Assembly (NCBI GenBank): GCA_949388605.1
Contig: CASKJV010000007.1
Span: 16,689 to 80,688, forward strand
Length of the DNA stretch: 64,000 bases
From: an uncultured Clostridia bacterium
GTDB taxonomy: Bacteria; Bacillota; Clostridia; TANB77; CAG-508
Reading direction: 5' to 3'
Positions 17,338 to 47,631 of the stretch are shown piece by piece. The notes under the pieces were generated by a model. That model was not told where the DNA came from, did not search any database, and worked only from the letters and a program-made list of their open reading frames with translations. How positions within the stretch are numbered: position 1 is the first letter of the stretch; the number at the start of each line of letters is the position of its first letter. The position numbers and the translations under genes are program-made.

Positions 17338-17500
17338 AATTTTCTTTTTGCAATATTTCTTGAAAGGTTTCTATTATAGGAAGTTCAAACAATTTTCTTT
17401 TTGCAATATTTCTTGAAAGGTTTCTATTATAGGAAGTTCAAACAATTTTCTTTTTGCAATATTTCTTGAAAGGTTTCTATTATAGGAAGTTCATAGAACT
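17338..17500. repeat. 53-bp tandem repeat, 3 copies, ending in an imperfect palindrome; shares its hairpin core with the dispersed repeat family
   Basis: The unit AATTTTCTTTTTGCAATATTTCTTGAAAGGTTTCTATTATAGGAAGTTCAAAC starts at 17338, 17391 and 17444. Confidence 0.9.
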
Positions 17501-30056: not shown

Positions 30057-30371
30057 TTAGTATATATCATCTCTGGTAAGTTGTTTTCCATAACAATCTA
30101 TAAATTGTCCAAAAGTAATAACTATAAAATCATTTGCTACAAATGCTAACATTGTTATTAAACACATTAATCCTATTGGAACGTTTACAGCCAATAATAA
30201 AAGTGAAACAATTGTACCATACATCATCAAAAATCCAGAACCTAATTTTCCAGCATATAAACGATGTACTCCAAAAAAACCTAAAAACCAGCATAACATC
30301 ATTGCTGTAAGTCTATTTTTACTACTTGTTTCTCTAACATCTTCTAATCTTTTCTTATTTTTTTTCTCCAT
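30057..30371 (-). CDS. TM2 domain-containing protein
   Basis: MMLCWFLGFFGVHRLYAGKLGSGFLMM. Confidence 0.75.
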   Translation of the reverse strand: MEKKNKKRLEDVRETSSKNRLTAMMLCWFLGFFGVHRLYAGKLGSGFLMMYGTIVSLLLLAVNVPIGLMCLITMLAFVANDFIVITFGQFIDCYGKQLTRDDIY

Positions 30372-30623
30372 TTGTAACTCCTTATTTTATTTATTGATAT
30401 TTTCTAAAATATAATATTTTAAATTTATTAAATAATTAATATAATAAATCCATTTTACTATTTTATTTTTATATTAAATATATCTATTTGTCAATTAATG
30501 TTATAAAAATGATAAAAAGAAGTTATGTTTATGTTACAGTTCACAACTTAAATATTGATATAAAAAATTTAACAATGATTCCTATTGTGTGAAAAAAGGG
30601 ACTTTTTACAGTCCCTTTTATAT

Positions 30624-33233
30624 TTATAATATTTCATTTCCATAATAGCTATCAATTAGTATTTGTTTAATTTCTGATACTAATGGTACTCTAGGATTTA
30701 CACCTGTACATTGATCTGAAAAAGCTTTATCAGCTAATTCATCAATTTTAGCTAAGAATTCTTGTTCATTAATTCCACAATCTCTAAGTGATCTTTCTTC
30801 ACCTAATTTTTGATTTAATTCAAGAACTGCTTTAACTAATGAGTTTACTCCTTCTTCTGTAGTTGATGCAGGCAATCCTAATCTTTTTGATAAATTAGCA
30901 TATCTTTCATCAGCAACGAAATGCTCATATTTAGGCCAAGATACCATTTTTGTTGGTGCACTTGCATTATATTTTATTACATAAGGTAATATTATGCTAT
31001 TAGCTTTACCATGAGGAATATGGAATTCTCCTCCTAATTTATGTGCTATAGAATGATTTACACCTAAGAAAGCATTTGTAAATGCCATACCTGCAATAGT
31101 ACTTGCATTATGCATTTTTTCTCTTGCTACTCTATCTGTGCCATCTTCATAAGCTCTTGGTAAATATTCAAAAACTAATTCTATTGCTTTTTCTGCTAAG
31201 CCATCTGTATAATCAGATGCCATAACAGAAACATACGCTTCTATAGCATGTGTTAAAACATCCATACCTGTATCTGCAGTTAATTTTTTTGGTAATGTCA
31301 TAACCAAATCTGGATCAATAATTGCAACATCTGGTGTTAATTCATAATCAGCTAGCGGATATTTCATATTTTTTTCTTTATCTGATATAACTGCAAATGA
31401 TGTTACTTCTGAGCCTGTTCCTGATGTAGTTGGTATAGCAACCATTTTACATTTTGTTCCAAGTTTAGGGAATTTATAAGTTCTTTTTCTTATATCCATG
31501 AATTTTAGTTTTAATCCTTCTACATCTGCATCTGGATATTCATAAAATAGCCACATTCCTTTTGCAGCATCCATTGCACTACCACCACCAAGAGCAATAA
31601 TAACATCTGGTTTGAAATTTTCCATTGCAGCAACACCTTTTTTTATTGTTGTAAAAGATGGATCTGATTCAACTTCTGAAAATATTTCAGCATGAACATA
31701 TGATTCTCTTTTTCTTAAATGATATAGTATTCTATCAACATATCCAAATTGAACCATTGAAGGATCTGTTACTATAAAAGCTCTTGTTATATCAGGCATT
31801 TTTTCTAAATATCCTATAGAACCAGCCTCAAAAAATATTTTTTCTGGAACTTTAAACCATTGCATATTAACCCTCCTTTTTGCAACTCTTTTTGCATTTA
31901 TCAAATTAACTGAAGATACATTTGAAGTTGTTGAATTTCCTCCAAAAGTACCACAACCTAAAGTTAATGATGGGATATTTGTATTATAAATATCACCAAT
32001 AGCACCATGAGTTGATGGAGAATTTACAATAATTCTTCCTGTTTTTACTGTATTTGCAAATTTATTTATTGAATCTCTATCTTCTGAATGAATAACAGCT
32101 GAATGCCCCATTCCACCAAATCTTATTAATCTGTCTGCAAGTTCTATTCCTTCATCAGCTGATTTTACTGTATAATAAGCTAAAACTGGACTTAACTTTT
32201 CTTCTGAAAATGGATGGTCAAATCCAACACCATTTTCTCTTACTATTAAAACTTTTGTATTTTCTGGCACTTCAAATCCAGCCCATTGAGCAATAATTTT
32301 AGGACTTTGTCCAGCTATTGCACCATTTAATTTATTTGAATTATTTGAATCAAACATTGTAGCTTGTAGTTTTGCCTTTTCTTCATCATTTACAAAATAG
32401 CAGTTAAGTTTTCTCATTTCTTCTTCAAAGTTTCCTGCAATTTCTTCATCTACAATAACTGCTTGTTCTGAAGCACAAATCATACCATTGTCAAAAGATT
32501 TTGACATAATTAAGTCTGTAACAGCCCTTTTCAACTTTGCTGATTTATTTATATAACAAGGTACATTACCAGGCCCAACTCCTAGTGCTGGTTTCCCACT
32601 AGAATATGCTGCTTTAACCATTCCTGATCCACCAGTTGCTAATATTAAATCTACACCTGGGTGATTCATTAATAAACTTGTAGCCAAAACTGATGGCTTG
32701 TCTATCCATAATATACAATCTTCTGGAGCTCCTTCTGAAACAGCTGCCTTTCTAACTACTTCTGCAGCTTCTCTACTACAATTTTGAGCAGATGGATGAA
32801 AACCAAATATTATAACATTTCTTGTTTTTGCTGATATCATGGACTTAAACATAACAGTTGATGTTGGATTTGTAACAGGAGTAACCCCTGCAATAACTCC
32901 AATTGGTTCTGCAATCAATTGATATCCTTCTTCTGAATTTTCATCAATAACTCCAACTGTCTTATCTTTTTTAATATTATGATAAACATATTCTGTAGCA
33001 AACATATTTTTAGTTATTTTGTCTTCATATATTCCTCTTCCTGTTTCTTCAATAGCCAATTTTGCAAGTCTCATATGATTATCAAGTCCAGCCATAGACA
33101 TTTTCTTTACAATTCTATCAACTTGTTCTTGATCTAATTTTTTGTATTCCTCTGAAGCAACTCTTGCTCTTTCAACTAAAGAATTTACCATTTGCTCAAC
33201 TTCTTGTCTTTCCTCTTCAGTCATTTCTGCCAT
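30624..33233 (-). CDS. adhE: Bifunctional acetaldehyde-CoA/alcohol dehydrogenase
   Basis: 869 aa: an aldehyde dehydrogenase N-terminal half plus an iron-type alcohol dehydrogenase C-terminal half ([18 protein letters not shown]). Confidence 0.95.
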
Positions 33234-33399
33234 AACATACCCTCCTTTAAATTTTACTATATTTTTATTTTATAAAAATTTATATTTCAATTTTTAAAAT
33301 TACTCTAAATAAGTATATATATAATTTAAATCAAATTCAAGATATTTATACCAAAAGATTTTCCTTTTATCTGACAAAATATTACAATTCACCTTCTAG

Positions 33400-33703
33400 A
33401 ACAAAAGTGGACGATATATAATTTTACAGAATAATAATCTGCTGAATTGTCCACGTATTTGTTCGAAGCGCCAATTTTGTACAACAAAATTGTGTGCAAA
33501 AATTGCGAAGCTTTTATTTTGTAGGAAGTGCAGAGCGCTTTCCTACTAAATAACAAAAGTGGACGATATATAATTTTACAGAATAATAACCTGCTGAATT
33601 GTCCACGTATTTGTTCGAAGCGCCAATTTTGTACAACAAAATTGTGTGCAAAAATTGCGAAGCTTTTATTTTGTAGGAAGTGCAGAGCGCTTTCCTCTAA
33701 ATA
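33400..33703 (+). repeat. Two tandem 152-bp units of a structured intergenic repeat family
   Basis: Units start with AACAAAAGTGGACG at 33400 and 33552. Each unit contains three hairpins. Confidence 0.9.
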
Positions 33704-33756
33704 AAAAACAGATTTATATAATAAAATTACTTTTATTATATAAATCTGCTTAAAAA

Positions 33757-35499
33757 TTATCTTCCATCTGCTTCTTCAATTTTTGCTTTAATGTCTTTTA
33801 ATTCACTATTCAATTTTGTACTCTTCGTATTTAATATTGATTCTTTATCCCTTGATAAACTTTTTCTCTTAAATATTTCTTTGCATTTTTTTATTTCAGA
33901 ACTGTCAACTCCATCTAAATATAGTTTTTCTTCAATACCAACAATTCCACAATATTCAATTGGGGAAAGATCTAAAGTTCTTTCTGGATATTCATCTAAT
34001 GTATAAATTCTATTATCTCTTCCTTTAATAAAAATAGGTTCATTTTTATTATATTTTTTTATTTTGCAATTCCATTTTTCTAATTTATCTATAGTTGATT
34101 TTGAAATACCTGTTTTTATTCCACCCAAATTAGAATTTCCATTTTCTAATAATTCTAAAAATTCTTCTAATTCTTCTTGAGAGTCAAATGATACATTCAT
34201 TATAGCATTTTGATCTGTTGCATCTCCAATATATTTTTTATAACTTTCTTTATCTTTTACAAATTGTTTTACTCTTAAGTAAAACTTTTTATCTTCTTCA
34301 TCTTCAAATTCTTCTTCTATGTCGATTTCTCTTCCGTTTTCATCAATTTTTGGAGTTATATCAGGAAATAGTCGTTCTTGAACAATACTAACTAAACAAT
34401 CAAGATTTGGTAAACACTCTGTTGCCAACCTTTTCAAATGTTCATTGCTAGTATTATCTATAATATGAAAAAGAGAATTATAAAATCTTATATCATTCCA
34501 CTCTAAAAATTCTTCTACTATACTTTCTATATTATTTTCTGAGATATAATTTAAAAATACTTTTAAATCACTATTAGTATCATCTTTTGCCAAAATTGTT
34601 TTACATGCTTCCTCTAAAAATATATCTCTTGGTCTATTCATTCTTGCTACATAAATATTTTCATAGTTTTCTGTTCTAGTTTGCAATATTTGCTCTATTG
34701 CTGGTTCTACTTCATAACTAAAAACAGGAACTTCTATATCTTTTCCATCATATTGAATTGTATAAATTTCGCATCCATTAGTTACTTTATCTAATAATTC
34801 AGGCATTGATTTTCTATTTATTTTACCAGAATAGAATCCATTTTCAACACCTAAATATAAAGAATCTCTTACTAAAAAGTCTGCTCTATCAAAATCTATA
34901 TTTCCTTCTTTTAAAGTATGTAAGCCATAATTTGCTTGTTTTACAATATCTAAAGCCTCCAATAACTTGGGATTAATATTATTAAATGCCTGAACAACTT
35001 CTTCATTCTCATGCAAAATTATGTTTCCTAAAACTTCATGTGCTCCTTTATGTTCTCCAATTAATCCTTCTAATGCATGTGAGCAAAAATTATGTCCTAT
35101 ATCATGAGATGCCATATCCATCATATTAGCTAAAACTTCTAGTTTTGAAGCTTTAGTAGAATTTCGTTCTCTCCATTCTGGCTTTTTATATTGTAGCATA
35201 TAAAAGTCTAACATCTTTTGATATGCACCTTTACAATGGTGTAATCTTGTATGAGATGCATTTGGATTATACAAGAAAATATTAACTAATTGTCCAATTT
35301 TTCCTAGCCTCTTCATTGCTTTAGTTTCAAAAAAATTCTTAATTTCTGGTGTATAATATACATATGGTTCTTTATAATCTAAAATTTTACTAATATCTAT
35401 TTCTTTTTCTAATTTGATATTTTCTTTATCTAATAGCCAAGAAAAAAATTCGTTATATTCATTTTTTTTAAATTGAATTACTTTTTCTTTATTATTCAT
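33757..35499 (-). CDS. HD-domain phosphohydrolase, SAMHD1/dGTPase-like (putative dNTP triphosphohydrolase) with a long C-terminal extension
   Basis: HTRLHHCKGAY, MASHDIGHNFCSH, DFDRADFLVRDSLYLGV. Confidence 0.65.
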   Translation of the reverse strand: MNNKEKVIQFKKNEYNEFFSWLLDKENIKLEKEIDISKILDYKEPYVYYTPEIKNFFETKAMKRLGKIGQLVNIFLYNPNASHTRLHHCKGAYQKMLDFYMLQYKKPEWRERNSTKASKLEVLANMMDMASHDIGHNFCSHALEGLIGEHKGAHEVLGNIILHENEEVVQAFNNINPKLLEALDIVKQANYGLHTLKEGNIDFDRADFLVRDSLYLGVENGFYSGKINRKSMPELLDKVTNGCEIYTIQYDGKDIEVPVFSYEVEPAIEQILQTRTENYENIYVARMNRPRDIFLEEACKTILAKDDTNSDLKVFLNYISENNIESIVEEFLEWNDIRFYNSLFHIIDNTSNEHLKRLATECLPNLDCLVSIVQERLFPDITPKIDENGREIDIEEEFEDEEDKKFYLRVKQFVKDKESYKKYIGDATDQNAIMNVSFDSQEELEEFLELLENGNSNLGGIKTGISKSTIDKLEKWNCKIKKYNKNEPIFIKGRDNRIYTLDEYPERTLDLSPIEYCGIVGIEEKLYLDGVDSSEIKKCKEIFKRKSLSRDKESILNTKSTKLNSELKDIKAKIEEADGR

Positions 35500-35551
35500 T
35501 TATTTCTCCTAATATAATTATATATATTTTTTGTATACAATTTTTCCTGTA

Positions 35552-35596
35552 GGGTTTCTATAATAGGAATTGCAAAGCAATTTCATATTATAAAAC
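35552..35596. repeat. Hairpin-core copy of the repeat family in the leader of the HD gene
   Basis: GGGTTTCTATAATAGGAATTGCAAAGCAATTTCATATTATAAAAC, preceded by TTTTTCCTGTAGGG. Confidence 0.7.
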
Positions 35597-35715
35597 TAAA
35601 AATCACTTTTACAATACTAAAACCTTAAATAAATTTTAGTATCTCTTAGATATTATAGCATAATTCATATAATATTGCAAAATCTTTCGAATCTATATTA
35701 AACATATAACTAAAG

Positions 35716-36024
35716 AACAAAAGTGGACGATATGATAATTACAAAATACCAAAATTTACTAAATCGTCCACGTATTTGTTCGAAGTGCCGATTTTGTTCT
35801 ACAAAATCGTGTGCAAAAATTGGCGAAGCTGTTATTTAGTAGGAAAGTGCAGAGCACTTTCCTACTAAATAACAAAAGTGGACGATATGATAATTACAAA
35901 ATACCAAAATTTACTAAATCGTCCACGTATTTGTTCGAAGTGCCGATTTTGTTTTACAAAATCGTGTGCAAAAATTGACAAAACTGTTATTTAGTAGGAG
36001 TGCAAAGCACATTCTACTAAATAA
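35716..36024 (+). repeat. Two tandem 155-bp units of the same repeat family
   Basis: Units start at 35716 and 35871, in the same orientation as 33400-33703. Confidence 0.9.
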
Positions 36025-36086
36025 AAAAATGAAAGTAAACTATTTTAAAGTTCACTTTCATTTTATATTTGATACTAGTTTAATTA

Positions 36087-37145
36087 TTAATATAAATAAT
36101 TTTGTGGATTTACTGGACTACCATTAATTCTAATTTCTAAATGTAAATGTGGTCCAGTTGAGTTTCCTGTTGATCCTACAGCAGCTATTGTAGAACCTGC
36201 GTCAACAGATTGACCTACTGACACATATAAAGCACTACAATGTGCATAATAAGATTGAACTCCATTTCCATGATCAATAATAACTAAATTACCATATGAT
36301 CCTTTATATGCTGAATATATTACTGTTCCAGCAGATATTGGTCTAATTCCTGTACCTGCAGATGCTGATATATCAAGTCCAGTATGAATTGTTGACCTTG
36401 AAGCACTTCTAGAACCAAATCTAGATGAAATTGAACCATTTACAGGTATTGATAATTGCATACCATTTAAATTCCCCGAAGGAGCTGATGTAGCTGTTGT
36501 TGCATAACTTCTAGTTCTTGAAGAACTATATGCTCTCTTGGCAGCTTCTTTTGCTGCTCTCTCTTCTTCTGCCTTTTTTGTTTCATATTCAGTAACTTTT
36601 GCTACTTTTAATTCATTTAATGCAGTTGTTGCAGTTTCTTTTGAGTATGCATTAGTCTCAGTTGTATATATTTCAACTATTCCTAATTTTAAATCAATTT
36701 CTGTGTTTAAATCTGCTTTTATTTCATTTATTATACTATCAGCCTCTTCTTGAGTACTAACAACAGCTTTTTGTTCTCCATCAGATGTAACTGCATATGC
36801 TCTGTAAGTTGTTGTTGTCATATTTTGTACTGCTAGCATAACATTCTTTTCTTCTGTTTCTTTTTCCCTATTTATAAGTTTAAATTCATACTCTGGCAAT
36901 TCACTTATTTCTCTAAATGCTATATTTCCAGTAGTATCATTTATATATTTTTCTATTTTAGCTTCTATTAAATTTCTATTTTCTATAAATCCAATTGTAT
37001 CTCCTGCCAATGTGACTTTATAAGCAGGTTTATATTTTACACATGCTATAGTTAATACTAAAGCTGAACCAATTGCGATTATTTTTAGGGTTTTGATAGA
37101 TTCTTTCGTATAATATTTAACCCAATTTTTTAAAATAAAATTCAC
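36087..37145 (-). CDS. M23/LytM-family metallopeptidase with an N-terminal anchor
   Basis: HTGLDISA...GNLVIIDHGNGVQSYYAH...GSTGNSTGPHLHLEI. Confidence 0.9.
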   Translation of the reverse strand: MNFILKNWVKYYTKESIKTLKIIAIGSALVLTIACVKYKPAYKVTLAGDTIGFIENRNLIEAKIEKYINDTTGNIAFREISELPEYEFKLINREKETEEKNVMLAVQNMTTTTYRAYAVTSDGEQKAVVSTQEEADSIINEIKADLNTEIDLKLGIVEIYTTETNAYSKETATTALNELKVAKVTEYETKKAEEERAAKEAAKRAYSSSRTRSYATTATSAPSGNLNGMQLSIPVNGSISSRFGSRSASRSTIHTGLDISASAGTGIRPISAGTVIYSAYKGSYGNLVIIDHGNGVQSYYAHCSALYVSVGQSVDAGSTIAAVGSTGNSTGPHLHLEIRINGSPVNPQNYLY

Positions 37146-37669: not shown

Positions 37670-40600
37670 TTATTTTAATTTCATTGATAACAATTTACTT
37701 ATTCCTTTTTCTTCCATTGTAATTCCATAAACTGTATCTGCTGCCTCCATTGTACCTTTTCTATGTGTTATAACTAAAAATTGTGATGCCTTAGAAAATT
37801 TCCTTAAATATTCTGCAAATCTATATACATTAACATCATCTAAAGCTGCTTCAATTTCATCTAAAACACAGAATGGAGCTGGATTTATTTTTAAAATAGC
37901 AAATAATAATGCAATAGCTGTAAATGCTCTTTCTCCTCCAGATAGCAACATCATATTCTGTAATTTTTTTCCAGGTGGTTGAACTGTTATATCAATTCCA
38001 CATTCTAAAATATTATCTGTATCTGTAAGAATTAATTCAGCTTTTCCTCCACCAAATAATTCTTTAAATACATCACTAAAGTTTTTATTTATTATTTTAA
38101 ATTGCTCTGCAAATTGAACTTTCATAGTTTCTGTCATTTCAGATATAACTTTTTTTAGTTTATTACTTGAAGCTTCTAAATCAAGTCTCTGTTCACACAT
38201 AAAATCATATCTTTCTTTTGTTTCTTTATATTCATTTATTGAATCAACATTTATACTTCCTAAATCTCTAATTTCACTTCTAATACTATTAACTTGTTTT
38301 TGAACTGCTGTAGGATTTTCTACTTTATTAGTTTCACCTACTGTATTTGGTGTTAATTCATATTCTTCCCACATTTTATCAATAACTTGATTTAGTTCAA
38401 GTTCAATTTTTGATTTCTTTAAATCTAATTTTGATATATGATTCTTAATATCTTCTAATTTAGTATTTTGTTCTTCAATATTCTTTTCTATATCATTTAA
38501 TTTTTCAGATTTCGAAATTCTCTCTTGTTTTAATTTTTCAACTTTATCTGTACTACCTAAGATTTCTTGTTCTAAATCAGTTATTTTTACTTTCAATTCT
38601 TCAATTTTGTTTTCTATATCTATATTATCTGCTAATATCTGTTCTCTTAAATTTTTCTTATTACTTATACTTGTATTGTTATTTTCAATGTCTAAATTTA
38701 TTCTATCCATCATCTCATTGATTGATATTTCACTTTCATCAAAAGATGATACAGAAATTTTTAAATTTGTAATATCAAAATTTAAATCATCAATATATTT
38801 TTGATTATCTTTATTTAAATTTATAAATTCATCAATTATTTCATTTAATTTACTATTTTGTTCTTCTATTTCTATAATGTTCTTATCTAATTCATCTTGT
38901 TTATTTAAGTTCTCTTCTTTTTCTTGTTTAACATTTTCTAAATCTTCTCTTGCTTTAGCAAGTTTTGCTTCTAACTTTATAATTTCTAAATCTATAGTAT
39001 CTATTTTTTGTTTTTTGGTAGCATAAACAATTTCTAATTCTTGATAGTCTTTTTGAGTTTGTTCAAATTTTTCTAAAATTTCTGATATACTATCTTCATA
39101 TTGTTCTTTTTCGTTTTGGACTTTACTAATTTTATTTTTTATTTCAACAAGTTCTTTCTTAAGTTCTTTAATTTCTTTTCCTCTTCCTAAAATACTAACT
39201 GTTTTACTTGCTACTGAACCACCACTTATTGCACCTGAAGGATTTATTACATCACCTTTTAATGTTACAATTTTGAATTTATAAGAATTCTGCTTTGCAA
39301 GTTTTACAGCATTATCAATATCGTCTACAATTACAGTTCTACCTAATAAGTTTAAAATTATTCCTTCATATTTTTTATCTGCTTTAACTAGGTCTGAAGC
39401 AATTCCTATTACACCATTTATTCCTTTAGTATTTACATTATTTATTTTTTGTCCTTTAACAGAACTTATTGGTAAAAATGATGCTCTTCCGAATTTTATT
39501 ATCTCTTAAATAATTTACTAATTTCTTAGCTTCTTCTTCTGAATTTGTAACTATATTTTGAATAGCTCCTCCTAAAGTCATTTCAATTGCAGTCTCATAT
39601 TGTTTATCAACAGAAATAAGATTTGCTAAAACACCATGTACTCCGTTAGATAAATTACTATTTTTTTCAACAGCTTCCATTAAGTGTTTTACACTTTTTA
39701 TATATCCTTCTTTTTCTTTTTCTGTTTCTACTAAAAATTTATATCTAGATTCTTTAATTCTATATTCTGATTGATATGCATTTATTTTTGTTTCATAATC
39801 TCTTAATTTTTCTGAGCTCTGATTTTTTTCGCTTTTCATATTTTCTAATAATTTTGAAAATTCGTTTCTCTTTTTTTCTACTTCATAAAAGTTTTTATCT
39901 AATTCTTCTTTGCTAGTTCTAGATGCATCAAGTTCGGATATATTTTCTTGTATTTCACTTTTTAATAGATTTTCTCTTTTATTTAGATTATCAAAATTAG
40001 CTTTTTCTGTATTTATATTTGAGATTATTTGATATTTATTATCAGTATTTTCTTGTACAATCTTCTTTTTTTCTTCGATTTCTAGTTCTTTATTAGATAG
40101 AGTTTCAGAATATTTTGCTAATTCTTCTTCTTTTTCTTTTAGTTCTGTTTCAAATTTTTCTTTATTATTGAAAAGATTATCTCTTTTTTGTATCTTTTGA
40201 TTTTTTTCCTCTTCTAGTTCTTTATTACGATTTTCTAAATCTTCAATTTCACCAGCATATCTTTCATAATTTTCCTTATTATTAGAAATCTTTTCACTAA
40301 AAATTGCAATTTCACTATTATATTGCTCTTTACGTCTGTTTCCTTCAAAACCTAAATTTTGAGTTTTTTCTATTTCTTCAATTAATGATTCAACCAAAGT
40401 TCTCAAATTTTCTTTTTCAAGTTGAATAGCATTTAAATCTTCTTCCTCTTTAACTTTTTGTGTTTCAAAAATATCAATATTTTCAAGAATTTCTTGTGTC
40501 TGTTTTTTATAATTTTCTATATTATACAAAAACAATCCTACTTCTATTGTTTTCAAGTTTTCTCTTAAATCTAAAAACTTCTTGGCCTTTTCTGACTGGA

Positions 40601-41219
40601 TTTTTAAAGGTCCTATATTGTTTTCAATTTCTGAAATAATATCATTTATTCTTAATAAATTAAGTTTTACTTGTTCTAATTTTCTTTCAGACTCAACTTT
40701 TCTAGTTCTATATTTTACTATTCCAGCAGCTTCTTCAAATATACGTCTTCTATCTTCAGATTTATTACTTAGTATTTCATCAATCTTTCCTTGTCCAATT
40801 ATAGAATAACCATCTTTTCCTATACCAGTATCCATAAATAGTTCTAAAACATCTTTCAATCTACAAGGAGTTTTATTAATAAAGTATCCGCTTTCTCCAC
40901 TTCTATAGATTCTTCTTGTAACTATTACTTCATTATATTCAATAGGTAATTTTGAATCAGAATTATCTATTACAATAGATGCTTCTGCATATCCTAAAGA
41001 TTTTCTATTCTGAGTTCCAGCAAAAATTATATCTTCAGATTTTGCACCTCTTAAAGATTTCATACTTTGCTCTCCTAGTACCCATCTAATACAATCTGAT
41101 ATATTACTTTTTCCTGATCCATTTGGTCCAATTACTGTTGTAATTCCTGGCATAAATTCTAAAACTGTTTTATCAGCAAAAGATTTAAAGCCATGCATTT
41201 CTAGTCTTTTTAAAAACAT
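37670..41219 (-). pseudogene. smc: Chromosome segregation protein SMC. Continuous except for one extra C, which splits it into a 587-aa ORF and a long start-less ORF.
   Basis: Walker A GPNGSGKSN; C-terminal LSGGERAFTAIALLFA...VLDEIEAALD. Manual translation shows ...LRDNKI, an extra C, then GRASFLPISSVKGQ... running without stops to 37670. Confidence 0.9.
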
Positions 41220-46299: not shown

Positions 46300-46351
46300 T
46301 AAAATAGCCATTATTTCGGCTCCACTTATTATAAACTATGCATAATTTATC

Positions 46352-46432
46352 TGTACAAAGTAAAATTGTCTGCAAAAGCTGGCGTAAGCCTTTATTTAGT
46401 AGGAAAGTCCAGATGAATTTCTACTAAATAAA
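46352..46432 (+). repeat. Partial (3' half) copy of the repeat family
   Basis: GTACAAAGTAAAATTGTCTGCAAAAGCTGGCGTAAGCCTTTATTTAGTAGGAAAGTCCAGATGAATTTCTACTAAAT. Confidence 0.8.
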
Positions 46433-46476
46433 ACCAACCCCAAAATGCTAATCTACTAACATTTTGGGGCATTCTT

Positions 46477-47556: not shown

Positions 47557-47586
47557 AAAACGTTCTCCTTATACATTTTTTCCGCA

Positions 47587-47631
47587 GGGGTTCTATTATA
47601 AGAATTGTAGGTCAACTTCCTATAATAGAAC
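47587..47631. repeat. Hairpin-core copy of the repeat family in the leader of the GT2/GtrA gene
   Basis: GGGGTTCTATTATAAGAATTGTAGGTCAACTTCCTATAATAGAAC, preceded by TTTTTCCGCAGGGG. Confidence 0.75.

What the first reader, a model, noticed from the sequence alone, without database searches (positions are those of the whole stretch)
33400..36024. HD (dNTPase-like) gene bracketed by directly oriented tandem pairs of a 152/155-bp repeat
Seen in sequence: two tandem units lie at 33400-33703 and two at 35716-36024, all in the same orientation. They enclose only the 580-aa HD gene and its leader hairpin (35552-35596). Within a pair the units differ at only a few positions; between pairs they have diverged, notably in the first hairpin loop.

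Inference: the direct repeats could mediate excision or duplication of the HD gene as a cassette, or mark the insertion scars of a mobile module. Alternatively they are transcribed regulatory RNAs flanking it.
Basis: partly seen in the sequence, partly recalled or inferred. Interest (0 to 1): 0.65.

Follow-up and report, generated by a model that had tools for sequence, protein, structure and literature searches.

The report
Terminator-hugging repeats flank an accessory gene
The four repeat units around the HD gene are real, but they belong to a family of about 50 small hairpin-rich elements that sit directly behind transcription terminators all over this mouse-gut Clostridia genome, so they bracket the gene because it lies between two terminators, not because they form a gene cassette.

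Summary
Observation confirmed: 2 x 152 bp (33400-33703) and 2 x 155 bp (35716-36024), all in one orientation, enclose only the 580-aa SAMHD1-like HD gene, its promoter, a leader hairpin and its terminator.

Interpretation mostly not supported. The units are copies of a dispersed non-coding element with three covarying hairpins. It is in no Rfam family.
- The genome holds 50 hits at 46 loci, and many species of the genus carry it.
- Its working strand is the gene strand (window minus).
- The upstream gene is co-oriented at 41 of 44 loci.
- The element starts at the end of that gene's terminator T-tract. A stable hairpin precedes 84% of copies, against 18% of control TTTTTTA sites.
- It ends in its own hairpin plus TTTTGTT, which looks like a new target. 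This plausibly explains the tandem arrays and the stacking of unlike copies.
- Its neighbours are mostly housekeeping genes.

The HD gene is accessory. In four relatives M23 and adhE are adjacent and repeat-free, and four other relatives carry different cargo in that gap. No excised or relocated form was found.

Most likely this is a terminator-targeting non-autonomous mobile repeat whose enzyme is unknown. One thing stays unexplained: two of the genome's three tandem arrays flank this one gene.

The parts
36025..36064 (-). Intrinsic terminator of the M23 peptidase gene (T1). Its T-tract runs straight into unit u4.
   Evidence: Terminator scan: 16-pair stem at 36064-36026 followed by TTTATTTAGT; sequence read.
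35871..36024 (-). Unit u4, the first unit after T1 when read on the gene strand. Its 5' hairpin is partly decayed.
   Evidence: TRF; nhmmer score 148; 91.7% identical to u3, with shared derived variants.
35716..35870 (-). Unit u3, a typical family member. It is up to 94.8% identical to copies on other contigs.
35652..35680 (-). The HD gene's own promoter (TTGCAA, 17 nt, TG-extended TATAAT).
   Evidence: Promoter scan, 10 of 12 matches with TG. Consensus match only; not tested.
35552..35596 (-). Solo hairpin in the HD leader. It resembles the 5' hairpin module (TATAATAGGAA...TTCCTATTATA) of the element subfamilies found in other genomes.
   Evidence: Repeat family D5; comparison with per-genome consensus sequences.
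33757..35499 (-). 580-aa SAMHD1/EF1143-like HD phosphohydrolase gene. It is accessory in this genus.
   Evidence: PDB 2q14, E = 3e-10; found in G000 plus 3 of 60 other genus genomes.
33703..33750 (-). Intrinsic terminator of the HD gene (T2). Its T-tract runs straight into unit u2.
   Evidence: Sequence on the gene strand: AGCAGATTTATATAATAAAAG-TAA-TTTTATTATATAAATCTG-TTTTTT, then ATTTAGAGG. The scan tool did not list it because it has too few G-C pairs.
33552..33702 (-). Unit u2, first after T2. Together with u1 it forms a divergent subfamily with no other member in this genome.
   Evidence: 96.7% identical to u1 and at most 83.0% to any other copy.
33400..33551 (-). Unit u1. Its end (…CCACTTTTGTT) abuts CTAGAAGG. 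In G071 the homologous TAGAAGG follows the M23 terminator directly.
33261..33340 (-). Candidate adhE promoters and leader, conserved with relatives. This is the ancestral part of the intergenic region.
   Evidence: Promoter scan; alignment by eye with the G066, G071 and G024 intergenic regions.
63745..63927 (-). Another copy behind a tRNA gene and its terminator. It has the 5' and central modules of this element and the 3' module of a longer sister family.
46340..46433 (-). A copy of the longer sister family, directly behind a G+C-rich terminator.
   Evidence: module comparison.

Best explanation
The four units are copies of a roughly 152-nt, non-coding, modular, hairpin-rich repeat. It has spread through this genome and, as separate lineages, through related species.

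Anatomy, read on the gene strand:
- It begins (A)TTTAGTAGGAAAG... immediately after the T-tract of the upstream gene's intrinsic terminator.
- It carries three covarying hairpins, a GCTTCGC mini-hairpin, and conserved single-stranded blocks (TTGCACAC, GAACAAAnACG).
- It ends with the hairpin GTGGACGAT...ATCGTCCAC followed by TTTTGTT.

Inferred mechanism: a trans-acting, still unidentified activity places the element at 'hairpin plus T-run' sites in the sense orientation. Because the element's own 3' end imitates such a site, further copies land behind existing ones. Existing units also duplicate locally. Both processes give tandem arrays.

The HD gene is a separately acquired accessory gene with its own promoter and terminator. 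It was inserted into the variable M23-adhE intergenic gap. The M23 terminator and the HD terminator each became a target, and that produced the bracket. The flanking direct repeats are a by-product, not the vehicle of the gene.

Shown: the family census, orientation, terminator abutment, structural covariation, lineage-specific amplification, and synteny. Inferred: active targeted insertion, self-targeting, and the order of events at this locus.
For: - **Census.** nhmmer finds 72 matches at E below 0.01. Fifty score 40 bits or more, at 46 loci in the 2.1-Mb genome. Eighteen of 61 genus genomes carry the element.
- **Orientation.** The upstream gene is co-oriented at 41 of 44 loci in this genome (p = 1.6e-9) and in 40 of 43 scorable cases in relatives. 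The median distance from stop codon to element is 55 nt. Downstream genes are 28 co-oriented and 21 convergent.
- **Terminator abutment.** Flanks read variable hairpin, then TTTTTTA, then the element. A hairpin of -6 kcal/mol or stronger precedes 84% of 77 copies, against 18% of 1461 intergenic TTTTTTA control sites (Mann-Whitney p = 1e-26).
- **No replication-strand bias.** 34 of 38 loci are co-oriented with replication, against a gene baseline of 88.9%.
- **Structure.** 93.8% of cells are paired. 19 of 33 pairs show compensatory changes. 0 of 500 shuffles reach the observed score, and slid controls give 36-50% pairing.
- **Lineage-specific amplification.** Within-genome identity is 83-93% in G000, G064, G071 and G024, where between-genome identity is mostly 70-77%. 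No G064 site could be matched to a G000 copy: only two of the eight G064 sites mapped on both flanks, and only one gives a usable orthologous region, which carries no copy but is too diverged to align.
- **Self-targeting.**
  - In G071, copies lie directly behind the 3' hairpin of a different subfamily.
  - About 9 of 27 G000 copies are followed at once by another 5'-hairpin module.
- **Local duplication.** Units within an array are each other's closest relatives in two of the three arrays (96.7% and 98.7-100%). In the third, u3 is closer to copies on other contigs (94.8%) than to u4 (91.7%), although the two share derived variants.
- **The locus.**
  - M23 and adhE are adjacent with a repeat-free gap of 150-250 nt in G066, G071, G068 and G001.
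  - G024, G053, G063 and G057 hold other cargo in that gap.
  - None of 12 relatives carries the repeat there.
- **The HD gene.** It has its own promoter.
Against: - No mobilising enzyme was found.
  - There is no TnpB.
  - The only two reverse transcriptases look, by size and neighbouring gene, like a DGR type and an Abi-like type, not group II (my reading, no family search run).
  - The single Y1 (RAYT-like) transposase is flanked by a different palindrome family. It is absent from the element-rich genomes G024, G053 and G066.
- No base-precise pair of empty and filled sites was obtained, so the exact ends and any target duplication are undefined.
- Two insertion sites were occupied in all four strains examined, so no recent movement was seen.
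- Selection against insertions elsewhere could contribute to the terminator association.
- Two of the genome's three tandem arrays flank HD. My rough estimate of this by chance is about 0.01, and the model does not predict it.
Confidence: 0.7

Rival explanations
1. The units are functional RNA modules, not selfish DNA. They would be transcribed by read-through of the upstream terminator and serve as a second 'fail-safe' terminator or insulator, a 3'-end stabiliser, or a source of 3'-derived small RNAs. Their spread would then be secondary.
For: - Strict sense orientation relative to the upstream gene.
- Strong compensatory covariation in three hairpins.
- Conserved single-stranded blocks across species.
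- A 3' hairpin followed by a U-run.
- A slight excess of G-U over A-C on the gene strand, 74 against 52.
- Fragments of the unit occur in contigs of runs labelled RNA.
Against: - No promoter lies inside the unit.
- No Rfam family matches.
- Copies sit at different loci in different species and form lineage-specific subfamilies. That is not what a conserved RNA gene does.
- The 3' hairpin has a loop or imperfect stem too long for the terminator scan to accept.
- The 5' hairpin apex occurs in both orientations in at least 6 copies. A DNA-level palindrome event explains this more easily than a sequence-specific RNA does.
- The RNA data are unstranded contigs at low depth and settle nothing.
Confidence: 0.15
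2. The directly oriented repeats bound a mobile or excisable HD module. It would move by homologous recombination between the pairs, or by machinery that starts at one element copy and stops at the next, as rolling-circle elements do when they capture genes.
For: - The HD gene is accessory and sits exactly between element arrays.
- The whole block u4...u1 occupies what is a single point in relatives: the M23 terminator T-tract followed by TAGAAGG in G071.
- Two of the three arrays in the genome flank it.
- One public assembly has a single hybrid u2/u1 unit, which shows or mimics recombination between units.
Against: - HD homologues in G061, G001 and G057 lie at other loci without any repeat.
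- Every contig long enough to show neighbours, among the 23 that carry the exact protein, shows the same M23-HD-adhE context.
- No credible HD-deletion joint appears, and HD is at the depth of its flanks in four metagenomes.
- The two pairs are only about 84% identical. u3 is closer to copies on other contigs (94.8%) than to u1 or u2.
- The element brackets housekeeping genes elsewhere, for example a 353-aa oxidoreductase-like gene on contig C5.
Confidence: 0.07
3. The element needs no dedicated enzyme and spreads by replication template switching. A nascent strand pauses after copying a terminator hairpin and its T-run. It re-anneals at the T-run in front of an existing copy, copies that element to its own hairpin plus T-run, and returns.
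For: - No transposase partner was found.
- Both junctions are hairpin plus T-run.
- Tandem arrays, truncated copies and module swaps between subfamilies are common.
- The hairpin apex flips, as expected of template switching inside quasi-palindromes.
Against: - The 3' end TTTTGTT, with its fixed G, is conserved in all copies and species, so it is not host T-tract sequence.
- The conserved single-stranded blocks suggest sequence-specific recognition by a protein.
- Copies in one genome are about equally diverged from one another, and subfamilies are specific to each lineage. This fits bursts from a few source copies.
- No direct evidence supports this model.
Confidence: 0.08

Closest known systems
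Pneumococcal small interspersed repeats BOX, RUP and SPRITE (Croucher et al. 2011, PMC3049150)
   Same: - Under 200 bp, non-coding and AT-rich, with tens to about 100 copies.
- Predicted stem-loops.
- Enriched downstream of genes and between convergent genes.
- Slow turnover, and no clear partner enzyme for SPRITE.
- BOX is modular (A-Bn-C). This superfamily likewise swaps 5', internal and 3' modules.
- SPRITE, like the 3' end here, looks like a terminator.
   Different: - SPRITE is itself one 18-bp duplex plus a U-tract that may act as the terminator. Here the element sits behind a host terminator, starts at the end of that T-tract, and carries three hairpins.
- Orientation here follows the upstream gene in about 93% of cases, against 61-63% leading-strand bias for the pneumococcal families.
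- No sequence relationship was tested or is expected.
Group IIC (class C) bacterial group II introns (Robart, Seo & Zimmerly 2007; reviewed in PMC4424553)
   Same: The only well-described mobile elements that insert after intrinsic terminator motifs, recognising a DNA stem-loop plus a short flank. That they do so in the sense orientation is from my own knowledge; the passage read does not state it.
   Different: - This element is 152 nt with no ribozyme domains and no Rfam hit.
- The genome's only two reverse transcriptases do not look like group II types, judged by size and gene neighbourhood only.
- It works like IIC in target choice but is not a member.
IS200/IS605-derived palindrome-associated elements and REP/RAYT systems (from my own knowledge of Ton-Hoang et al. 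and Messing et al.; not read here)
   Same: - Hairpins at both ends, with no terminal inverted repeats and no visible target duplication.
- Oriented insertion next to a short motif.
- A GTAG/ATAG tetranucleotide at the foot of the 5' hairpin, and CT after the 3' end in about 85% of copies.
- One RAYT-like Y1 gene is present in this genome.
   Different: - The Y1 gene is flanked by a different palindrome, GGGGACGTTAGTTTTTGGAC, at about 18 sites.
- It is missing from the element-rich genomes G024, G053 and G066.
- There is no excess lagging-template bias.
- The target is a structure (terminator), not just a 4-5-nt word.
bcr1 repeat of the Bacillus cereus group (from memory; not checked here)
   Same: A chromosomal repeat of about 155 bp in a low-GC Firmicute. 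It has conserved secondary structure, tens of copies and MITE-like behaviour.
   Different: bcr1 is reported to duplicate a TTTAT target and is not tied to terminators. No homology was tested.

Membership tests
MITE (miniature inverted-repeat transposable element) | Terminal inverted repeats | tested here: not met
   The 5' end TTTAGTAGGAAAGTGC and the 3' end ...ATCGTCCACTTTTGTT share only an internal AAAGTG when one is reverse-complemented (by eye).
MITE (miniature inverted-repeat transposable element) | Target-site duplication | tested here: inconclusive
   Left flank ...TTTTTTA, right flank usually CT(A/T). Orthologous empty sites are too diverged for a base-precise comparison. No polymorphic site was seen in four strains.
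MITE (miniature inverted-repeat transposable element) | A related autonomous IS with the same ends in the genome | tested here: not met
   By inspecting the nhmmer table I saw no 5' module and 3' module separated by an ORF. ORFs lying between neighbouring copies, including partial ones, are housekeeping genes.
REP/RAYT (REPIN) system | The repeats flank and co-occur with a single-copy RAYT (Y1) gene | tested here: not met
   The RAYT-like gene at C5:36766-37530 is flanked by a different palindrome. Y1 genes are absent from G024 (23 copies), G053 (14) and G066 (12).
IS200/IS605-type ssDNA element (PATE) | Subterminal hairpins, no TIR, oriented insertion 3' of a short target | tested here: inconclusive
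   The hairpins and orientation fit. However, the target is hairpin plus T-tract and not a fixed word, and there is no strand bias beyond gene orientation.
IS200/IS605-type ssDNA element (PATE) | TnpA and/or TnpB encoded somewhere in the genome | tested here: inconclusive
   One Y1_Tnp hit and no TnpB zinc-ribbon hit. The MAG is 97% complete with 56 contigs.
Group IIC intron | Insertion just after intrinsic terminators, sense orientation | tested here: met
Group IIC intron | Six-domain ribozyme and, usually, an intron-encoded reverse transcriptase | tested here: not met
   The unit is 152 nt. No Rfam group II hit appears even at E up to 10. By size and neighbouring gene, neither of the genome's two RTs (442 aa alone; 374 aa beside a 169-aa ORF that I read as Avd-like) looks like a group II type; no family search was run on them.
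Any curated RNA family (Rfam 15) | Covariance-model match at or near the gathering score | tested here: not met
   The window gives only tRNAs at gathering threshold. At E up to 10 there are only chance miRNA-like hits on the hairpins.
Gene cassette or composite mobile unit bounded by the repeats | The same repeat-gene-repeat block found in different contexts, or excised and empty forms | tested here: not met
   Contig data cannot exclude rare forms.
SAMHD1/EF1143-type HD dNTP triphosphohydrolase (the enclosed gene) | HD-domain metal-binding motifs H..HD..D and similarity to solved dNTPases | tested here: met
   RLHHCKG, SHDIGH and DFDRADFLVRDS motifs. PDB 2q14 E = 3e-10, 2o6i 1.7e-8, SAMHD1 about 2e-4. 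Activity was not tested, and the C-terminal 350 aa are unassigned.

The most novel reading that the evidence does not exclude
The family is a new kind of terminator-targeting mobile DNA. It would be a 150-nt non-coding element with no inverted ends, no target duplication and no enzyme of its own.

It would be placed base-precisely at the end of an intrinsic terminator's T-tract, in the terminator's orientation, by an unknown host or trans-acting activity that reads a DNA or RNA hairpin plus T-run. It regenerates that target at its own 3' end, so it stacks into arrays.

In rare cases two copies could carry the DNA between them, such as the HD gene, to a new terminator. On the opposite strand the conserved GCTTCGC reads GCGAAGC, which I recall (unchecked) as a known, unusually stable DNA mini-hairpin. 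This would point to a single-stranded DNA intermediate.
Probability: 0.15. Interest if true: 0.8.

Novelty: new variant of a known kind. Interest (0 to 1): 0.42.

Why it matters
For this finding, the result is a correction. The bracket of direct repeats is not evidence that the HD (possible dNTP-depleting defence) gene is a mobile cassette. Annotators should not read such brackets as cassette boundaries in these genomes.

For the family, the interest lies in target choice. Precise, sense-oriented placement at intrinsic terminators is otherwise known only for group IIC introns, which use a ribozyme and a reverse transcriptase. Here a 150-nt element does the same with no recognisable enzyme, in a large genus of uncultured low-GC gut Clostridia.

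If the targeting is active, it points to an undescribed way of recognising terminator structures. It would also supply a natural 'safe harbour' insertion rule.

The elements break short-read assemblies, since contigs end at every copy. They also create copy-number ambiguity in MAGs.

Tried and rejected
- **Known RNA families.** Rfam at gathering threshold and at E up to 10 gave nothing but tRNAs and chance miRNA-like hits.
- **Riboswitch or leader of adhE or HD.** Rejected: the units abut the upstream terminator, not the downstream start, and they occur in convergent gaps.
- **Promoter inside the unit.** No match on the gene strand.
- **Group II intron remnant.** No ribozyme hit, and neither reverse transcriptase in the genome looks like a group II type by size and neighbourhood.
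- **TnpB or omega-RNA relation.** No TnpB in the genome.
- **RAYT as mobiliser.** It is flanked by another palindrome family. Co-occurrence is imperfect: 7 of 11 element-rich genomes have some Y1 gene, against 12 of 50 others, and this is confounded by phylogeny.
- **Replication-strand bias.** None beyond gene orientation.
- **Phage vector.** One hit in 2.9 million viral contigs, and it is a chance match inside a coding region.
- **Base-precise empty sites.**
  - Orthologous intergenic regions in other species are too diverged.
  - Two sites were occupied in four strains.
- **Excision of HD.** Only short, low-confidence joints were seen, with 20-22-nt sides attributable to other copies.
- **Transcription.** The RNA-labelled runs are unstranded contigs at low depth.
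- **RNA strand from wobble pairs.** 74 G-U against 52 A-C, not decisive.
- **HD arriving into a pre-existing four-unit array.** Rejected: u3 is closer to copies elsewhere than to u1 or u2.
Full report
**1. The observation**

Tandem Repeats Finder reports two arrays: 33400-33708 (period 152, 2.0 copies, 98% matches) and 35709-36029 (period 155, 2.1 copies, 93% matches). The sequence shows all four units in one orientation.

Between the arrays lie:
- one ORF of 580 aa on the minus strand, 33757-35499;
- its terminator;
- a leader hairpin at 35552-35596;
- a promoter-like site, TTGCAA-17-TGnTATAAT, at 35680-35652.

The protein carries the H..HD..D motifs. Over residues 62-224 it matches solved HD phosphohydrolases of the SAMHD1/EF1143 class: 2q14 at E = 3e-10, 2o6i at 1.7e-8, and SAMHD1 at about 2e-4. 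Pfam, NCBIfam and PADLOC give no hit.

The flanking genes, also on the minus strand, are an M23 peptidase (36087-37145) upstream and adhE (30624-33233) downstream.

**2. The units are not special to this locus**

Rfam has no family for them. The window lies in a 2.1-Mb, 25.8% G+C MAG with 56 contigs. Many mouse-gut metagenomes hold near-identical sequence.

A profile of the four units finds 72 matches in the genome. Fifty of these score 40 bits or more, and they lie at 46 loci. There are only three tandem arrays: the two here and a triple on contig C41.

The element also occurs in 18 of 61 sampled genomes of the genus, with up to 23 listed copies per genome.

**3. Orientation and position**

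- In this genome the upstream gene is co-oriented at 41 of 44 loci (p = 1.6e-9).
- In 57 copies fetched from 14 other genomes it is co-oriented in 40 of 43 scorable cases. The median distance from stop codon to element is 55 nt.
- The downstream gene is co-oriented 28 times and convergent 21 times.

The upstream gene therefore sets the orientation.

Read on the gene strand, the flanks show a locus-specific hairpin, then TTTTTTA, then the element starting TTTAGTAGG (or TTTTATAGG or TATAATAGG in other species). A hairpin of -6 kcal/mol or stronger lies just before the T-tract in 84% of 77 copies. The figure is 18% for 1461 intergenic TTTTTTA control sites (p = 1e-26).

Both arrays here obey the rule. 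u4 follows the M23 terminator and u2 follows the HD terminator. Copies also follow tRNA genes, as at window 63745-63927.

There is no replication-strand bias beyond that of genes: 34 of 38 loci, against a baseline of 88.9%.

The neighbours are ordinary genes, including ftsK, lon-like, nrdD, IMP dehydrogenase, spo0A, rsmD and divIVA-like genes. I named these by eye from the translations.

**4. Anatomy**

On the gene strand the parts run as follows:
- 5' hairpin (TTTAGTAGGAAAGTGC-TCT-GCACTTCCTACTAAA);
- a GCTTCGC mini-hairpin;
- the conserved block TTGCACAC;
- a second hairpin (ACGATTTTGT-ACA-ACAAAATCGG);
- the conserved block GAACAAAnAC;
- a third, long hairpin (GTGGACGAT...ATCGTCCAC);
- TTTTGTT, followed by CT in about 85% of copies.

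On an alignment of 61 copies from 15 genomes, 93.8% of cells are paired and 19 of 33 pairs show compensatory double changes. None of 500 shuffles reaches the observed covariation. Slid controls give 36-50% pairing.

Wobble counts do not identify an RNA strand: 74 G-U against 52 A-C.

The apex of the 5' hairpin occurs in both orientations. The loop is TCT or AGA, and the bulged A moves to the other arm. This is seen in at least six copies from three genomes. I read this as a sign of DNA-level palindrome events.

The reverse complement of GCTTCGC is GCGAAGC. I recall this as an unusually stable DNA mini-hairpin, but I did not check the literature here.

**5. Evidence for spread**

Copies within a genome are more alike than copies between genomes. 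Median identity is 89% in G000, 93% in G064, 86% in G024 and 83% in G071, against mostly 70-77% between genomes.

No G064 copy could be tied to a G000 copy. Only two of the eight G064 sites mapped to G000 on both flanks. For one of them the orthologous G000 region is short and carries no copy, but it is too diverged to align base by base. One site is shared between G006 and G000.

Units within an array are each other's closest relatives in two of the three arrays, 96.7% and 98.7-100%. These arrays grew by local duplication. The u3/u4 array is the exception. u3 is closer to a copy on contig C5 (94.8%) than to u4 (91.7%), although the two share derived variants.

Unlike copies also stack. In G071 a full copy lies directly behind the 3' hairpin of a different subfamily. 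About 9 of 27 G000 copies are followed at once by another 5'-hairpin module. This fits the idea that the element's own hairpin plus TTTTGTT end acts as a target.

The family is modular. A longer sister family shares the 5' and central modules but has another 3' module containing GATAAGTTATACAGAGGAA, found at 20 sites. Hybrids between the two exist.

**6. Search for a partner enzyme**

- The genome has one Y1 transposase gene of RAYT type. It is flanked by a different palindrome that is itself dispersed at about 18 sites.
- Y1 genes are absent from G024, G053 and G066, which hold 12-23 copies of the element.
- There is no TnpB.
- Two reverse transcriptases were found. One is a 374-aa protein beside a 169-aa ORF that I read as Avd-like, which suggests a DGR. 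The other is a 442-aa protein that I read as Abi-like. No family search was run on either, but neither looks like a group II type.
- One scan of the viral contig collection, with a 20-nt motif from the conserved block before the 3' hairpin, gave a single chance match inside a coding region.

The enzyme, if there is one, is unknown.

**7. The locus**

- In G066, G071, G068 and G001, M23 and adhE are adjacent, with a repeat-free gap of 150-250 nt.
- In G024, G053, G063 and G057 the same gap holds other genes.
- In the four relatives whose M23 is closest to this one, both adhE and HD are absent from the locus.
- No relative has the repeat at this locus.

HD homologues of 38-51% identity occur in 3 of 60 other genomes, at other loci and without repeats. 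The HD gene is therefore an accessory insertion into a variable gap.

In G071 the M23 terminator T-tract is followed directly by TAGAAGG. In this genome the same motif follows u1. The whole block u4...u1 thus occupies one ancestral point. This is compatible with stepwise events, and less simply with a composite insertion.

**8. Tests of the cassette idea**

- Twenty-three public contigs were read that carry the exact protein. Every contig long enough to show neighbours has the M23-HD-adhE context.
- Four metagenomes show HD at the depth of its flanks. Only short, unconvincing joints were seen.
- One assembly has a single hybrid u2/u1 unit. Another has at least three units upstream of HD. These may be real copy-number variants or short-read collapse.
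- Two other insertion sites were occupied in all four strains examined.
- RNA-labelled runs were uninformative.

**9. Verdict**

The bracket arises because two terminators, each a preferred site of a genome-wide terminator-associated repeat, lie on either side of an accessory gene.

What remains unexplained is why two of the three arrays in the genome are these two. My rough estimate of that by chance is about 0.01.

The closest known comparisons are:
- the pneumococcal BOX, RUP and SPRITE repeats, for general nature and modularity;
- group IIC introns, for target choice.

The element is a member of neither. I re-derived it independently here.

Noticed in passing
G000 contig C5:36766-37530 (outside the window); related palindrome near window 1067: A single-copy RAYT-like Y1 transposase gene (254 aa). 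It is flanked in inverted orientation by the 16-bp-stem palindrome GGGGACGTTAGTTTTTGGAC-ATTTTT-GTCCAAAAACTAACGT. That palindrome is dispersed at about 18 sites in the genome. This looks like a separate REP/RAYT system.
   Followed up: partly
window 46340-46433 and 63745-63927; 20 sites genome-wide (for example G000 C4:54615, C14:5464): A longer sister repeat family. It shares the 5' hairpin and central modules of the 152-nt element. It differs by internal modules (…TTTCTTAGCTGTAGAATTT…GATAAGTTATACAGAGGAA…), sometimes repeated, and by another 3' hairpin that also ends TTTTGTTC. The architecture is BOX-like (A-Bn-C), and hybrids occur.
   Followed up: partly
window 17338-17493: A perfect 53-bp x 2.9 tandem array of a TATTATAGGAAGTTC-type hairpin motif. 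In G066 the orthologous intergenic region holds a full element copy (L058).
   Followed up: partly
window 35552-35596 and 47577-47631: Solo hairpins of the TATAATAGGAA...TTCCTATTATA type lie in 5' leaders. They resemble the 5' hairpin module of the element subfamilies of other species. The 10-mers ATAATAGGAA and ATTATAGGAA occur 89 and 76 times in the genome, about three times my rough expectation.
   Followed up: partly
5' hairpin of the element, for example G000 C5:103071, C27:6307, C39:388; L073, L074, L039: The hairpin apex occurs in two mirror forms: GGAAAGTGC-TCT-GCACTTCC and GGAAGTGC-AGA-GCACTTTCC. This is an inversion of the palindrome tip, and it recurs in three genomes.
   Followed up: partly
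window 33507-33513 and 33659-33665 (GCGAAGC on the plus strand; GGCGAAGC at 35822-35829 in u3): The conserved, covarying mini-hairpin GCTTCGC (GCCTTCGGC in other species) reads GCGAAGC on the opposite strand. From memory this is a known, unusually stable DNA mini-hairpin. I did not check it in the literature.
   Followed up: no
M23 - adhE - TM2 locus, window 30057-37145; L011-L022: The gap downstream of the M23 peptidase gene is a hot spot for gene-content change in the genus. Cargo genes in the gap:
- G024: a 187-aa gene.
- G053: a 366-aa gene.
- G063: 677-aa and 484-aa genes.
- G057: 476-aa and 509-aa genes.

G059, G006, G062 and G017 have a 285-304-aa gene and no adhE of this type at the locus. 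Their adhE paralogue is only about 50% identical and lies elsewhere.
   Followed up: partly
L083 (ERR675622 assembly) and L085 (GCA_948951255.1): Public assemblies of the same species differ in unit number. One has a single hybrid u2/u1 unit between HD and adhE. Another has at least three units upstream of HD. This is either real copy-number variation or collapse by short-read assemblers.
   Followed up: partly
G000 C2:9724-10332 and C12:24100-24744: Two reverse transcriptase genes. One is a 374-aa RT beside a 169-aa ORF that I read as Avd-like, which suggests a diversity-generating retroelement. The other is a 442-aa stand-alone RT that I read as Abi or defence type. Both readings are by eye; no family search was run.
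   Followed up: no
window 37670-41219: smc is split into two ORFs (587 aa and 347 aa). Earlier notes of this scan attribute the split to the CGG +1 frameshift phenomenon of this lineage. I did not examine it here.
   Followed up: no
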